A stretch of DNA of 46,666 nt from a virus (Duplodnaviria > Heunggongvirae > Uroviricota > Caudoviricetes), in the IMG/VR virus record IMGVR_UViG_2880395615_000009, positions 1-46,666 of that record, one strand, 5' to 3'. Position 1 is the first letter of the stretch; every line of letters begins with the position of its first letter. A program made the translations under genes and the position numbers. This document shows, in pieces, positions 42,557 through 45,028 of this stretch. Under the pieces are notes generated by a model. The model made no database searches, was not told where the DNA came from, and saw only the letters and a program-made list of their open reading frames with translations.

Positions 42557-45028
42557 ATGAGTAAAGTCTTTATTTGCGCCGCTATTCCGGACGAACAGGC
42601 AATAAAGGAAGAAGGTGCAGTCGCTGTAGCCACTGCCATTGAAGCTGGCGACGAACGCCGCGCCCGTGCCAAATTTACCTGGCAATTCCTGGAGCAATAT
42701 CCGGCTGCTCAGGACTGCGCTTATAAATTTCTTGTTTGCGAGGATAAACCCGGTATACCCCGCCCTGCCCTCGATTCCTGGGATGCTGAATATATGCAGG
42801 AAAACCGCTGGGATGAGGAGTCAGCTTCCTTTGTCCCGGTTGAGACTGAATCAGATCCGATGAACGTCACTTTTGACAACCTAGCCCCTGAAGTACAGAA
42901 CGCTGTCATGGTTAAGTTCGACACATGTGAAAACATCACTGTTGATATGGTGATTAGCGCACAGGAATTGTTGCAGGAAGACATGGCAACATTCGACGGA
43001 CATATCGTTGAAGCGTTGATGAAAATGCCAGAAGTTAACGCTATGTATCCGGAGCTTAAGCTGCATGCCATCGGGTGGGTTAAGCATAAATGTAAGCCTG
43101 GTGCCAAATGGCCCGAAATTCAGGCAGAGATGCGCATCTGGAAAAAACGTCGCGAAGGTGAACGCAAGGAAGCCGGAAAATACACGTCTGTTGTTGATCT
43201 CGCCCGCGCCAGAGCCAATCAACAGCACACTGAAAATTCAACAGGAAAAATCAACCCGGTCATTGCTGCCATTCATCGCGAATACAAGCAGACATGGAAA
43301 ACACTGGATGACGAACTGGCCTACGCTCTCTGGCCTGGTGATGTGGATGCCGGAAACATTGACGGCAGCATCCATCGCTGGGCAAAAAATGAAGTTATCG
43401 ACAACGACCGCGAAGACTGGAAGCGTATCTCGGCATCAATGCGCAAACAGCCTGATGCCCTTCGCTACGACCGCCAGACTATTTTTGGCCTTATCCGTGA
43501 ACGTCCGATCGACATTCACAAAGACCCTGTGGCACTGAACAAATACATTACTGAATACCTGACTACAAAGGGCGTGTTTGAAGATGAAGGAAGAAATCAG
43601 AGCGCAACTGATACTCTCTCGTCGCCAGTACCAGAAACTGATGCAGTGGAAACGGCAATTCCGGACAACGAAAAAACCGAATGCAAAGTGGAAGTCGAAC
43701 CATCTGTAGAGCGTGAGGGGCCGTTCTACTTCCTCTTCACCGACAAGGATGGCGAAAAATACGGTCGCGCAAACAAACTTTCTGGTCTGGATAAGGCGCT
43801 GTCTGCTGGGGCTACTGAAATCACGAAAGAAGAATATTTCGCCCGCAAAAACGGTACATACTCAGGTTCACAACAAAATACTGGTGCATCTGACACGACC
43901 GCACAACCAGGGTCAGTAAAAGTTACCGCTGACGAAGTAAACAAAATTATGCAGGCAGCCAATATCAGCCAGCCTGACGCCGATGAACTGCTTGCAGTAT
44001 CACGTGGTGAATTTGTTGAAGGGATTAGCGACCCGAATGATCCGAAATGGGTGAAGGGAATTGAAACCCGCGATTCTGTGAACCAGAACCAGCAAGAAAC
44101 GGAACAGAACGACCAGAAAGCGGATCAAAACAGCCCAAATACGCAACAAAACGAGCCAGAAACGAAACAATCCGAACCAGTAGCGCAACAGGAACCGGAA
44201 AAGATCTGCACCGCCTGCGGTAAGAGCGGTGGCGGCAACTGCCCTGATTGTGGCGCGGTGATGGGTGACGCAACATACCAGGAAACGTTCGATGACGAGA
44301 ATCAGGTCGAAGTTCAGGAAGACAATTCGGAGAAAATGGAAGGCGCTGAACATCCACACAAGGAGAATGCTGGCAGCGCTCAGGACCACGCCAGCGATAG
44401 TGAAACTGGCGAGACGGCAGATCCCTTAATTGCGGTGAACAGTCATCACATTATCACATCCACCAGCAGAGTGTGGACTCACCTGTCGGTCGACCTTGAA
44501 ACGATGGGAACAAATCCTGATGCACCAATCAACTCTATTGGCGGTAAATTCTTTGACCCGACAACCGGAGAGATGGGGCCGGAATTCAGCAAAGCTATCG
44601 ATCTGGAAACATCTGGCGGAATCATCGACCGGAAAACAATAAAGTGGTGGGCGAAGCGATCACGCGAAGCGCAATCTGCCATTTTTACCGATGAAATCCC
44701 GTTAGATGACGCTCTACTGCAATTACGGGAATTTATCAACGAAAACTCCGGCGAAAGCTTTGTCCAGATCTGGGGAAATGGAGCCAACTTCGACAATGTG
44801 ATTTTACGCCGTTCATATGAACGGCAGGGGATCCCCTGCCCGTGGCGTTACTACAACGATCGCGATGTGCGCACAATTGTTGAACTGGGAAATTCCATTG
44901 GCTTTGATGTCAGAATGGCTATTCCATTCGAAGGTGTACCCCACAATGCACTTGATGATGCACGTCACCAGGCAAAACAAGTTTCAGCAATCTGGCAAAA
45001 ACTGATCCCAAGTCAGGCTGATTTTTAA
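42557..45028 (+). CDS. Exodeoxyribonuclease VIII-like protein with acidic Q/E-rich linker, C4 zinc ribbon and C-terminal DEDDh (DnaQ-like) 3-prime to 5-prime exonuclease domain
   Basis: Middle region SRGEFVEGISDPNDPKWVKGIETRD...CTACGKSGGGNCPDCGAVMGDATYQETFDDE resembles RecE-family proteins as remembered; C-terminal motifs DLET, NGANFD and HNALDDARH fit the DEDDh exonuclease signature. Confidence 0.65.
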   Translation: MSKVFICAAIPDEQAIKEEGAVAVATAIEAGDERRARAKFTWQFLEQYPAAQDCAYKFLVCEDKPGIPRPALDSWDAEYMQENRWDEESASFVPVETESDPMNVTFDNLAPEVQNAVMVKFDTCENITVDMVISAQELLQEDMATFDGHIVEALMKMPEVNAMYPELKLHAIGWVKHKCKPGAKWPEIQAEMRIWKKRREGERKEAGKYTSVVDLARARANQQHTENSTGKINPVIAAIHREYKQTWKTLDDELAYALWPGDVDAGNIDGSIHRWAKNEVIDNDREDWKRISASMRKQPDALRYDRQTIFGLIRERPIDIHKDPVALNKYITEYLTTKGVFEDEGRNQSATDTLSSPVPETDAVETAIPDNEKTECKVEVEPSVEREGPFYFLFTDKDGEKYGRANKLSGLDKALSAGATEITKEEYFARKNGTYSGSQQNTGASDTTAQPGSVKVTADEVNKIMQAANISQPDADELLAVSRGEFVEGISDPNDPKWVKGIETRDSVNQNQQETEQNDQKADQNSPNTQQNEPETKQSEPVAQQEPEKICTACGKSGGGNCPDCGAVMGDATYQETFDDENQVEVQEDNSEKMEGAEHPHKENAGSAQDHASDSETGETADPLIAVNSHHIITSTSRVWTHLSVDLETMGTNPDAPINSIGGKFFDPTTGEMGPEFSKAIDLETSGGIIDRKTIKWWAKRSREAQSAIFTDEIPLDDALLQLREFINENSGESFVQIWGNGANFDNVILRRSYERQGIPCPWRYYNDRDVRTIVELGNSIGFDVRMAIPFEGVPHNALDDARHQAKQVSAIWQKLIPSQADF

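What the first reader, a model, noticed from the sequence alone, without database searches (positions are those of the whole stretch)
42557..45028. Large exonuclease VIII-like protein with a DEDDh-type C-terminal domain and no adjacent RecT/Bet partner
The 823-aa protein has a RecE-like middle region with a C4 zinc ribbon and an acidic Q/E/N-rich linker, but its C-terminus carries DnaQ-like DEDDh motifs (DLET, NGANFD, HNALDDARH) rather than what I remember of the RecE nuclease fold. The next genes are xis and int, with no single-strand annealing protein (RecT/Bet/Erf) nearby.
Basis: partly seen in the sequence, partly recalled or inferred. Interest (0 to 1): 0.5.

Follow-up and report, generated by a model that had tools for sequence, protein, structure and literature searches.

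The report
RecE-like prophage protein, swapped exonuclease head
This very common E. coli prophage gene joins the non-catalytic body of the RecE recombination exonuclease to a different, opposite-polarity (3'-to-5') nuclease, and it never comes with the strand-annealing partner that RecE always has; databases already list it, but nobody has tested what it does.

Summary
ORF 42557..45028 (+) encodes an intact 823-aa protein. It is identical to RefSeq WP_000048562.1 'exonuclease' of the Qin-site lambdoid prophage of E. coli O55:H7 CB9615.

- **Residues 1-256:** 96% identical to the IS2-truncated K-12 pseudogene ydfE.
- **Residues 262-626:** homologous to the non-catalytic middle of RecE, including a CxxC-x7-CxxC zinc ribbon.
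- **Residues 641-813:** a DEDDh exonuclease (Pfam PF16473, E 1e-61). All five catalytic residues are present. The closest solved relative is phage T4 DexA, a 3'-5' DNA exonuclease.

The scaffold family is modular, with three alternative C-terminal heads:

- **RecE nuclease head:** a RecT gene lies directly downstream in about 100 of 102 loci.
- **Rad52-like annealase head:** followed by a Gp157 gene.
- **DEDDh head:** no annealase in any of 212 loci, nor anywhere in this prophage.

All domains are under purifying selection. The DEDDh head occurs in 3818 of 5426 complete E. coli genomes, against 1728 for recE-recT.

The most likely function is a partner-less 3'-end-trimming DNA exonuclease of the early lytic operon. 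That role is inferred, not shown. I call it a catalogued but functionally unstudied variant of a known kind, of moderate interest.

The parts
42557..45028 (+). Complete gene for the 823-aa scaffold plus DEDDh exonuclease (= WP_000048562.1; full-length form of the K-12 pseudogene ydfE)
   Evidence: ORF. It is 100% identical to NC_013941.1 2005708-2008179, annotated 'exonuclease'. It matches PHROG 2082 over 823/823 positions. dN/dS is 0.22 over 72 alleles.
42557..43336 (+). N-terminal region, residues 1-260 (YdfE_N type): an alpha/beta domain at about 1-100 and a helical domain at about 105-206
   Evidence: 96% identical to K-12 YdfE 1-256. Near-identical relatives carry a precomputed PF27430 = YdfE_N hit. 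The AlphaFold2 model has pLDDT around 90 here. No informative fold match was found. dN/dS is 0.14.
43340..44434 (+). Middle region, residues 262-626, homologous to the non-catalytic residues 278-592 of RecE (YdfE_C type)
   Evidence: BLASTP against K-12 RecE gives E 8e-60. NCBIfam PRK09709 matches residues 245-626 to model positions 270-603 only.
43709..43867 (+). Small beta-hairpin plus helix domain, residues 385-437 (GPFYFLF...EEYFARKNG), conserved across all scaffold relatives
   Evidence: Confident in both AlphaFold2 runs, with pLDDT about 80-93. The motif is conserved in alignment A3 and in P0125.
44207..44251 (+). C4 zinc ribbon: C551-x2-C554-x7-C562-x2-C565
   Evidence: The four Cys are invariant in 19 homologues. 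The motif is conserved in K-12 RecE (CNACGQTGGDNCPDCG).
44072..44200 (+). Q/E/N/P-rich low-complexity linker, residues 506-548
   Evidence: Read directly from the sequence. pLDDT is below 50. This segment has the highest dN/dS of the gene, 0.35 for residues 451-640.
44279..44476 (+). Acidic linker, residues 575-640, ending at the junction where homology to RecE stops
   Evidence: Alignment with RecE ends at query 626 / RecE 592. The Pfam DEDDh match starts at residue 641.
44477..44995 (+). DEDDh (DnaQ-like) 3'-5' exonuclease domain, residues 641-813
   Evidence: PF16473 at E 1e-61. A profile of this domain finds T4 DexA (8KEL) at E 2.9e-19 as the best solved relative. It is 55-57% identical to stand-alone exonucleases of phages mEpX2 and g341c. 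dN/dS is 0.17.
44492..44500 (+). Exo motif I, D646-L-E648
   Evidence: Aligned with DexA D7/E9. Conserved in alignment A1.
44792..44794 (+). Exo motif II, D746 (in NGANFD)
   Evidence: Aligned with DexA D119. Invariant.
44942..44959 (+). Exo motif III, H796-x4-D801 (HNALDD), the 'h' variant of DEDD
   Evidence: Matches DexA H186/D191 by motif. Invariant.
42089..42477 (+). Upstream genes of the same leftward early operon: dicB (42089..42277) and a ydfD-like DUF1482 gene (42274..42477)
   Evidence: Pfam DicB at E 9e-39 and DUF1482 at E 6e-20. The order matches K-12 Qin: dicB-ydfD-ydfE.
45100..46666 (+). Downstream genes: excisionase (45100..45351) and tyrosine integrase (45371..46666). No annealase gene lies between them.
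   Evidence: Pfam DUF1233 excisionase, Arm-DNA-bind_2 and Phage_integrase. RefSeq annotation.

Best explanation
**What it is.** The gene encodes a modular DNA-end-processing enzyme of the leftward early operon of a lambdoid prophage. This is the slot that recE-recT hold in Rac and exo-bet-gam hold in lambda. Its first ~630 residues are a non-catalytic scaffold shared with RecE: YdfE_N, YdfE_C, a small beta-hairpin domain, a zinc ribbon and disordered acidic linkers. RecE's 5'-3' PD-(D/E)XK nuclease has been replaced, exactly at the domain boundary, by a DexA-like DEDDh nuclease.

**Shown.**
- The architecture and the intact catalytic pentad.
- Purifying selection on every domain.
- The rule that this head never travels with an annealase, while the RecE head almost always has recT.

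**Inferred.**
- After induction, the protein removes nucleotides from DNA 3' ends by two-metal catalysis.
- It trims 3' tails or flaps, or blunts ends, on phage or broken DNA.
- Host functions (RecBCD/RecA, polymerase, ligase) and the prophage's own RusA resolvase then complete recombination or repair.
- A dedicated annealase is not needed, because 3'-5' resection does not make the 3' single strand that RecT or Bet is loaded onto.
For: - **Architecture:**
- **Catalytic residues:** conserved and aligned with DexA.
- **DNA rather than RNA substrate:** the closest solved relative is T4 DexA, a 3'-5' DNA exonuclease, at E 2.9e-19; Rv2179c itself is not detected. DexA has documented roles in host DNA scavenging and in intron homing (PMC12153337); that homing is a double-strand-break repair process is background knowledge.
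- **Recombination context of the head:** stand-alone copies 55-57% identical sit inside Erf-SSB-[DEDDh]-Abc2 modules or beside Gp2.5-like or Enc34-type ssDNA-binding proteins and a DNA polymerase.
- **Recombination context of the scaffold:** the same scaffold carries the RecE nuclease with recT directly downstream. It also carries a Rad52/Rad22-like annealase domain (24 of 30 members hit PF04098, best E 2e-06) followed by a Sipho_Gp157 gene.
- **Head-partner rule:** 212 DEDDh-head loci (184 distinct proteins, 39-99% identical to this one) have no annealase, SSB, Gam or Abc2 gene. About 100 of 102 RecE-head loci have recT directly downstream. The rule also holds in a Rac-like prophage.
- **Functional gene:** dN/dS is 0.14-0.35 in every segment, and the ORF is full-length in 79 of 80 loci.
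- **Operon position:** same as dicB-ydfD-ydfE of K-12 Qin, with no promoter or terminator signal above chance around the gene.
Against: - No experiment on this protein or on ydfE was found, so activity, substrate (DNA or RNA) and polarity all rest on homology.
- A 3'-5' exonuclease destroys the 3' tails that RecA needs, so a pro-recombination role is not self-evident.
- The scaffold gave no informative fold match, so what it binds is unknown.
- A stand-alone E. coli DexA homologue has been reported as an anti-T4 defence nuclease (PMC12153337), which is a different biological role for the same fold.
- The C-terminal domain was not modelled with confidence.
- The IMG/VR loci are not phylogenetically independent.
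Confidence: 0.5

Rival explanations
1. It is an anti-phage defence nuclease of the 'HREX' type. The DEDDh head would recognise modified (5hmC-type) DNA of superinfecting phages and degrade it, protecting the lysogen.
For: Kang et al. 2025 (PMC12153337) report that a stand-alone E. coli DexA homologue (EcD) degrades T4 DNA, spares unmodified DNA and protects cells from T4. Prophage accessory genes often act in exclusion.
Against: - The two residues that paper finds necessary for 5hmC recognition are not kept here. DexA W152 corresponds to Y766, which varies (Y/H/C/S/T) among 120 homologues. DexA D169 corresponds to A788 (A/T/V, never acidic).
- EcD starts MIDTET and ends ...TIPETYD, judging from its cloning primers, so it belongs to a different lineage.
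- No PADLOC defence model matches.
- The gene sits in the repressor-controlled early operon, next to kil-type genes and xis-int, so by analogy with lambda/Qin it should be repressed in a lysogen and off in the state that needs defending.
- The scaffold is otherwise attached to recombination heads.
Confidence: 0.15
2. It is a 3'-5' exoribonuclease, as the Pfam family name suggests. It would act on phage or host transcripts, for example on the 3' end of the early-left transcript that carries xis and int.
For: The Pfam family is named after the M. tuberculosis exoribonuclease Rv2179c, and NCBI names many copies '3'-5' exoribonuclease'. The gene lies directly upstream of xis-int. DEDDh enzymes include both RNases and DNases (oligoribonuclease hits at E 7e-3).
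Against: The best solved relative, by 15 orders of magnitude, is the DNA exonuclease T4 DexA, and Rv2179c is not recovered at E<=1. Stand-alone relatives sit in DNA recombination and replication modules. The scaffold is shared with DNA recombination proteins.
Confidence: 0.1
3. It scavenges nucleotides or attacks host DNA, as T4 DexA does. It would degrade host or foreign DNA fragments to nucleotides during lytic growth and play no part in recombination.
For: Homology to DexA, whose host-DNA scavenging role is described as well established in PMC12153337.
Against: - As far as I know, temperate lambdoid phages do not degrade the host chromosome.
- The window contains no endonuclease partner of the T4 type.
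- The 640-residue recombination-type scaffold would be left unexplained.
- The neighbour rule against RecT points to a functional link with the recombination slot.
Confidence: 0.08
4. The scaffold hides an annealase, so the protein is a self-contained one-polypeptide recombinase and needs no separate partner.
For: Sister proteins do fuse a Rad52-like annealase domain to the same scaffold. The N-terminal part of RecE enhances linear-linear recombination (PMC11611040).
Confidence: 0.05
5. It is a decaying prophage remnant with no current function.
For: The K-12 copy (ydfE) is a pseudogene cut by IS2. This prophage has a frameshifted gpJ and an IS256 insertion, so it may be defective.
Against: The ORF is full-length in 79 of 80 close loci, dN/dS is 0.14-0.35 in every segment, and the catalytic residues are invariant. 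The DEDDh head DNA (>=80% coverage) is present in 3818 of 5426 complete E. coli genomes, with up to 7 places per genome. It is also present in phage genome records such as mEp460.
Confidence: 0.02

Closest known systems
RecE (exonuclease VIII) of the Rac prophage, E. coli K-12
   Same: Same operon slot (last early-left gene before xis-int). The middle region is homologous (query 262-626 to RecE 278-592), including the zinc ribbon and acidic linkers. Relatives exist that combine either N-terminus with either head.
   Different: The catalytic domain is a DEDDh 3'-5' exonuclease in place of the PD-(D/E)XK 5'-3' nuclease. The N-terminal 260 residues are of the YdfE type, not the RecE type. No recT follows. 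The protein fails the NCBIfam RecE equivalog cutoff (272 against 1269 bits).
Phage T4 DexA (exonuclease A; PDB 8KEL/8KEN)
   Same: Closest solved relative of the C-terminal domain (profile E 2.9e-19). It has the same five catalytic residues. It is a 3'-5' DNA exonuclease with a role in double-strand-break processing during intron homing (PMC12153337).
   Different: DexA is a stand-alone 227-aa protein of a virulent phage, with extra loops. Its 5hmC-recognition residues W152 and D169 are Y766 (variable) and A788 here. Overall identity is about 26%.
Stand-alone Rv2179c-like exonucleases of lambdoid and P22-like phages (mEpX2 gp31, Salmonella phage g341c gp29)
   Same: 55-57% identical to residues 642-816. 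Same early-left operon, inside the recombination module.
   Different: They are 182-aa stand-alone proteins flanked by Erf, SSB and Abc2. They keep the W and 'RDM' residues that are lost in the fused form.
EcD / HREX defence exonuclease (Kang et al. 2025, PMC12153337)
   Same: An E. coli-encoded DexA-family DEDDh exonuclease.
   Different: EcD is a stand-alone protein of a different lineage (it starts MIDTET). Its reported specificity residues are not conserved in this protein. No defence test exists for the fused form.
K-12 ydfE (Qin prophage pseudogene) and Pfam YdfE_N / YdfE_C
   Same: ydfE is the first 256 codons of this same gene at the same chromosomal site (96% identity). Relatives at 87-99% identity carry PF27430 + PF27432 + PF16473.
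   Different: The K-12 copy is truncated by IS2 and has lost the middle region and the nuclease. The window holds the complete gene.
M. tuberculosis Rv2179c (namesake of PF16473)
   Same: Same Pfam family and the same DEDDh chemistry.
   Different: Rv2179c is a small bacterial exoribonuclease. It was not recovered by sequence or profile search from this domain, so the RNase label is a family-name transfer, not evidence of substrate.

Membership tests
RecE / exodeoxyribonuclease VIII (NCBIfam NF007259 equivalog) | C-terminal PD-(D/E)XK 5'-3' nuclease domain (RecE about 606-866) | tested here: not met
   No alignment to RecE beyond residue 592. phmmer with RecE 595-866 finds it in relatives but not in this architecture.
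RecE / exodeoxyribonuclease VIII (NCBIfam NF007259 equivalog) | Whole-protein score above the curated cutoff | tested here: not met
   272.7 bits against a cutoff of 1269. Only model positions 270-603 of 877 are matched.
RecE / exodeoxyribonuclease VIII (NCBIfam NF007259 equivalog) | Non-catalytic middle region with zinc ribbon | tested here: met
   Query 262-626 aligns to RecE 278-592 at E 8e-60, with the CxxC-x7-CxxC motif conserved.
Two-component exonuclease + annealase recombinase (RecET / lambda Red type) | A single-strand annealing protein gene adjacent to the exonuclease gene | tested here: not met
   None in the window. None in 212 DEDDh-head loci, whereas recT follows about 100 of 102 RecE-head loci.
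Two-component exonuclease + annealase recombinase (RecET / lambda Red type) | 5'-3' resection that generates a 3' single strand | not testable with these tools
   Polarity is inferred to be 3'-5' from the DEDDh fold. This needs a biochemical assay.
DEDDh (DnaQ-like) exonucleases, Pfam PF16473 Rv2179c-like | Pfam match above the gathering score over the full domain | tested here: met
   E 1e-61, 208.1 bits against 27, profile positions 1-177 of 177.
DEDDh (DnaQ-like) exonucleases, Pfam PF16473 Rv2179c-like | Catalytic D, E, D, H, D in motifs I-III | tested here: met
   D646, E648, D746, H796 and D801 are present and conserved.
DEDDh (DnaQ-like) exonucleases, Pfam PF16473 Rv2179c-like | Metal-dependent 3'-5' exonuclease activity | not testable with these tools
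   Needs the purified protein.
DEDDh (DnaQ-like) exonucleases, Pfam PF16473 Rv2179c-like | RNase H-like fold of the domain | tested here: inconclusive
   The full-length AlphaFold2 run, built on a shallow alignment, gave pLDDT below 70 for the C-terminus. The fold is inferred from sequence homology to 8KEL.
HREX / DexA-type 5hmC-recognising exonuclease (Kang et al. 2025) | Homology to T4 DexA | tested here: met
   phmmer E 4e-4 and profile E 2.9e-19.
HREX / DexA-type 5hmC-recognising exonuclease (Kang et al. 2025) | Conserved W152 and D169 equivalents, needed for 5hmC DNA | tested here: not met
   Y766 (Y/H/C/S/T among homologues) and A788 (A/T/V). This rests on the alignment.
HREX / DexA-type 5hmC-recognising exonuclease (Kang et al. 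2025) | Protection against modified-DNA phages | not testable with these tools
   Needs plaque and growth assays.
YdfE family (Pfam PF27430 YdfE_N + PF27432 YdfE_C) | N-terminal and central domains of K-12 YdfE and its relatives | tested here: met
   96% identity to YdfE 1-256. Homologues at 87-99% identity all carry PF27430 and PF27432 in precomputed hits; the family names come. These two models are absent from the local Pfam copy, so the window protein itself could not be scanned against them.
Known anti-phage defence systems (PADLOC-DB 2.0) | Match to any defence-protein model | tested here: not met
   No family at E<=0.01.

The most novel reading that the evidence does not exclude
The RecE/YdfE scaffold may be a general delivery platform of enterobacterial prophages that can carry any of three DNA-processing heads: a 5'-3' nuclease, a Rad52-like annealase or a 3'-5' DEDDh nuclease. 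The DEDDh version would then be a distinct, annealase-independent, reverse-polarity end-processing pathway. It would channel DNA ends to host RecBCD/RecA much as ExoI does, or block rival pathways. It would also be the dominant occupant of the 'recombination slot' in E. coli prophages, more than twice as common as recET, yet never studied.
Probability: 0.3. Interest if true: 0.6.

Novelty: new variant of a known kind. Interest (0 to 1): 0.4.

Why it matters
RecET and lambda Red are the basis of recombineering and the textbook model of phage recombination. This analysis shows that the commonest 'RecE-like' protein in E. coli prophages is a different enzyme. It is present in about 70% of complete genomes, often in several copies, and K-12 ydfE is its stump. 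It has the opposite predicted polarity to RecE and no annealase.

If it processes DNA ends, it would affect several things:
- how these prophages, including those of O157:H7 and O55:H7 strains, recombine, repair and exchange modules;
- how the unexplained N-terminal two-thirds of RecE should be interpreted;
- annotation, because many copies are still labelled exodeoxyribonuclease VIII, and the Rad52-like sister proteins are labelled 'exonuclease'.

The clean rule linking head type to partner gene gives a direct, testable handle on what the shared scaffold does.

Tried and rejected
- **Homologue search, full length:** returned only near-identical E. coli sequences, so it said nothing about architecture. 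The representative-library search with residues 1-640 replaced it.
- **AlphaFold2, full length, on 19 close homologues:** poor (pLDDT 39.5) and not used for fold claims. The second run on residues 1-450 with a diverse alignment was good, but all three fold searches were uninformative. The afdb50 library was unavailable.
- **PADLOC:** no hit for the protein or for two neighbouring genes.
- **Rfam at gathering threshold over 36000-46666:** no hit.
- **Promoter and terminator scan:** nothing above chance, so there is no evidence for an independent promoter.
- **PDB sequence searches with the third head type:** nothing significant. Rad52 appeared only at E about 1.6.
- **hhalign against human RAD52, sequence typed from memory:** weak (E 0.002, probability 13%). 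The Rad52 assignment therefore rests on Pfam PF04098 hits in 24 of 30 family members.
- **Literature:** searches for ydfE, Rv2179c with phage, and exonuclease VIII with DEDD found no functional study.
- **Hidden annealase among the prophage's 'hypothetical' genes:** considered and rejected. The 321-aa protein is an O-like replication initiator, and the 171-aa protein belongs to an unknown-function PHROG on the opposite strand.
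Full report
**Observation**

The window contains an ATG-to-stop ORF of 823 codons at exactly 42557..45028 on the + strand. It is 100% identical to NC_013941.1 2005708-2008179 of E. coli O55:H7 CB9615, annotated WP_000048562.1 'exonuclease'. The window spans the whole lambdoid prophage, which is inserted between a truncated ydfJ and rspB. That is the site of the cryptic prophage Qin in K-12.

The local gene order is: LexA-like repressor, DUF1391, an opposite-strand 171-aa gene, dicB, a ydfD-like DUF1482 gene, this gene, excisionase, integrase.

**Anatomy of the protein**

- **Pfam.** The local copy finds one significant domain, PF16473 (Rv2179c-like 3'-5' exoribonuclease). 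It covers residues 641-813 over the full profile, at E 1e-61.
- **RecE model.** The NCBIfam RecE equivalog matches only residues 245-626, to model positions 270-603, at 272 bits against a cutoff of 1269.
- **Direct comparison with K-12 RecE.** Residues 262-626 align with RecE 278-592. Identity is above 80% from 'SRGEFVxGISDPNDPKWVKGI' through the CxxC-x7-CxxC zinc ribbon and the acidic tail. The alignment stops just before the nuclease fold of RecE. A review places the nuclease fragment at 564-866 and calls the rest 'of unknown function' (PMC11611040).
- **N-terminus.** Residues 1-256 are 96% identical to the K-12 pseudogene ydfE, which is cut by IS2. So ydfE is the stump of this gene.
- **Newer Pfam models.** Close relatives carry precomputed hits to PF27430 (YdfE_N) and PF27432 (YdfE_C) as well as PF16473.
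- **Catalytic residues.** D646, E648, D746, H796 and D801 are conserved. They correspond to D7, E9, D119, H186 and D191 of T4 DexA.
- **Closest solved relative.** A profile of the domain finds DexA (8KEL) at E 2.9e-19. The next hits are a Cas2-DEDDh fusion and oligoribonucleases, at E 3.5e-4 or weaker. Rv2179c is not recovered.
- **Structure prediction.** A model of residues 1-450 built on a diverse alignment is confident (pLDDT 78.8). It shows an alpha/beta domain (1-100), two helical domains (105-206 and 245-340) and a small beta-hairpin plus helix domain (385-437), joined by disordered linkers.

**The missing partner**

- **This prophage.** RefSeq annotates no RecT, Bet, Erf, Sak4, Gam, Abc2 or SSB gene anywhere in it. 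It does have RusA. A tblastn panel of those proteins finds nothing in the window.
- **The larger unannotated proteins.** These are an O-like replication initiator, a CII-like protein, a Ren-like protein and an unknown-function PHROG.
- **Other carriers.** Phages mEp460 and vB_EcoS-640R1 have the same dicB-ydfD-exo-xis-int order and no annealase.

**A modular family**

Searching 1.8 billion representative proteins with the non-nuclease residues 1-640 returns only 250 clusters. Domain mapping of these shows a mosaic.

- There are two N-terminal types, YdfE-type and RecE-type.
- They combine freely with three C-terminal heads: DEDDh, the RecE PD-(D/E)XK nuclease, and a third ~290-residue domain with no Pfam hit in the fused proteins.
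- The third head is a Rad52/Rad22-like annealase domain. 24 of 30 diverse family members match PF04098, the best at E 2e-06 and 28.3 bits against a cutoff of 20.3. NCBI names one member a Rad52/Rad22 family protein. The FG..GW and TDA.KKAL..LGF motifs align with human RAD52, though weakly.

**Each head has its own neighbours**

| Head | Example | Neighbouring genes |
|---|---|---|
| RecE nuclease | K-12 Rac; P0132 | recT, or a RecT-family gene (PF03837, E 2e-36), overlapping directly downstream |
| Rad52-like | P0129, ZF40 gp07, PMG1 | a Sipho_Gp157 gene follows; P0129 is also preceded by a weak Gam hit |
| DEDDh | P0128 in a Rac-like prophage; P0122 | only an excisionase-like gene and/or the integrase follow |

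I then tested this on 315 IMG/VR loci from four scans. I searched every ORF of 60 aa or more with a 24-protein panel.

- **DEDDh head:** 212 loci, 184 distinct proteins, 39-99% identical to this one. 202 have at least 1 kb of downstream sequence and 179 have at least 5 kb upstream. None contains an annealase, SSB, Gam, Abc2 or lambda-Exo gene.
- **RecE-nuclease head:** 102 loci. About 100 have a RecT-family ORF on the same strand directly downstream.
- **Within one scaffold lineage** (P0251-like), the split is 57 DEDDh without an annealase against 22 RecE-nuclease with RecT.

**Is the gene functional?**

In 79 of 80 close loci the ORF is full-length. Against 72-73 distinct alleles, dN/dS is 0.14 for the N-terminus, 0.17 and 0.35 for the two halves of the middle region, and 0.17 for the DEDDh domain.

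The synonymous divergence of the DEDDh segment (0.59) is far above that of the N-terminus (0.125). The gene is therefore itself a recombinational mosaic.

The DEDDh segment is found at 80% coverage or more in 3818 of 5426 complete E. coli genomes, at 7463 places and up to 7 per genome. The recE-nuclease plus recT cassette is found in 1728 genomes.

**What the head does elsewhere**

- Stand-alone copies 55-57% identical to residues 642-816 lie between SSB and Abc2, just after Erf, in the recombination modules of mEpX2 and Salmonella phage g341c.
- More distant stand-alone copies sit beside a Gp2.5-like or Enc34-type ssDNA-binding protein and a DNA polymerase.
- The same paper reports that a stand-alone E. 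coli homologue, EcD, selectively degrades 5hmC DNA and protects against T4. EcD begins MIDTET, judging from its cloning primer, so it belongs to another lineage.
- The two residues shown there to be needed for 5hmC recognition are not conserved here. W152 corresponds to Y766, which is variable, and D169 corresponds to A788, which is never acidic in the homologues.
- No PADLOC defence model matches.

**Most likely mechanism**

*Shown:*
- the architecture;
- the intact active site;
- purifying selection;
- the operon position;
- the head-partner rule.

*Inferred:*
- After induction, the protein is made from the early-left transcript. No separate promoter or terminator signal rises above chance.
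- The scaffold brings the DEDDh head to DNA ends, and the head removes nucleotides 3'-5'.
- This trims 3' tails or flaps, or blunts ends, so that host RecBCD/RecA, a polymerase, and the prophage RusA can finish the job.
- The consistent loss of recT with the head swap fits this. A 3'-5' nuclease does not make the 3' single strand that an annealase is loaded onto.

I put 0.5 on this as a whole. I am much more confident in the enzymology and architecture than in the biological role.

Rivals, with my confidence in each:
- HREX-like defence nuclease, 0.15;
- exoribonuclease, 0.10;
- DexA-like scavenging of host DNA, 0.08;
- annealase hidden in the scaffold, 0.05;
- non-functional remnant, 0.02.

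**Comparison with what is known, and novelty**

The protein is not a RecE. It lacks the defining nuclease domain, fails the equivalog cutoff and has no RecT. It is a bona fide PF16473 DEDDh protein fused to the YdfE/RecE scaffold.

Databases already capture the composition. RefSeq calls it 'exonuclease' or '3'-5' exoribonuclease domain-containing protein', PHROG 2082 covers it, and the newer Pfam models describe its domains. So the entity is catalogued.

I found no paper on its function or on ydfE. A gene-context study of phage recombinases mentions only RecE-type 5'-3' exonucleases (PMC2896510).

I therefore class it as a new variant of a known kind. Interest is moderate (0.4): it is common, clearly functional and mechanistically at odds with the RecET paradigm, but there is no experimental anomaly yet.

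Noticed in passing
Related proteins P0129, P0138, P0164, P0184, P0264; loci L091:4004-6169 (phage ZF40 gp07), L092:3992-4738 (phage PMG1), L100:5650-7986: A third head on the same YdfE scaffold is a Rad52/Rad22-like annealase domain: 24 of 30 family members hit PF04098. It is annotated 'exonuclease' in PHROGs 2489/7838 and in phage records, which looks like a transferred misannotation. In all three contexts checked it is followed by a Sipho_Gp157 gene, labelled 'Mu Gam-like end protection'.
   Followed up: partly
window 41852-41905 (+), between the 171-aa minus-strand gene and dicB: A divergent DicF-like sRNA allele. The flanks are about 90% identical to the K-12 dicF region. A stem (GGCGGGTATC...GATACCCGCC) plus a T-run is kept, but the core that pairs with targets differs from K-12 DicF. 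Rfam finds no DicF at the gathering threshold.
   Followed up: partly
window 41025-41540 (-): A 171-aa gene on the opposite strand, inserted in the early-left operon between DUF1391 and dicB. It has a coiled-coil N-terminus, and its C-terminus carries CPKC...CLYC cysteine pairs. It belongs to PHROG 1244 (unknown function) and has no Pfam or PADLOC match. It may be a moron or exclusion gene.
   Followed up: partly
window 42557-45028, comparing segments: Synonymous divergence between alleles is about five times higher in the DEDDh segment (dS 0.59) than in the N-terminal segment (dS 0.125). This implies recombination breakpoints inside the gene and several DEDDh allele classes circulating among E. 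coli prophages.
   Followed up: no
window 80-2380 and 6094-9473 (coordinates derived from L008): The left end of the prophage carries a DinI-like gene, an IS256-family transposase, the type III effector gene nleG7 and a DUF1076 gene. The tail tip gene gpJ is frameshifted and a TerB-family gene has an internal stop. The prophage is probably defective but carries cargo.
   Followed up: no
window 33095-33469 (-): A RusA Holliday-junction resolvase is the only other recognisable recombination gene in the prophage. RusA also occurs in 20 of the 80 closest related loci.
   Followed up: no
L098:6001-8418 (NCBI GCA_039763085.1 contig): A Rac-like prophage (sieB, kilR, ydaE context) carries a protein with the RecE-type N-terminus and the DEDDh head. 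It lacks recT, ralR and rcbA. The whole recE-nuclease plus recT cassette therefore seems to be exchanged as a unit.
   Followed up: partly
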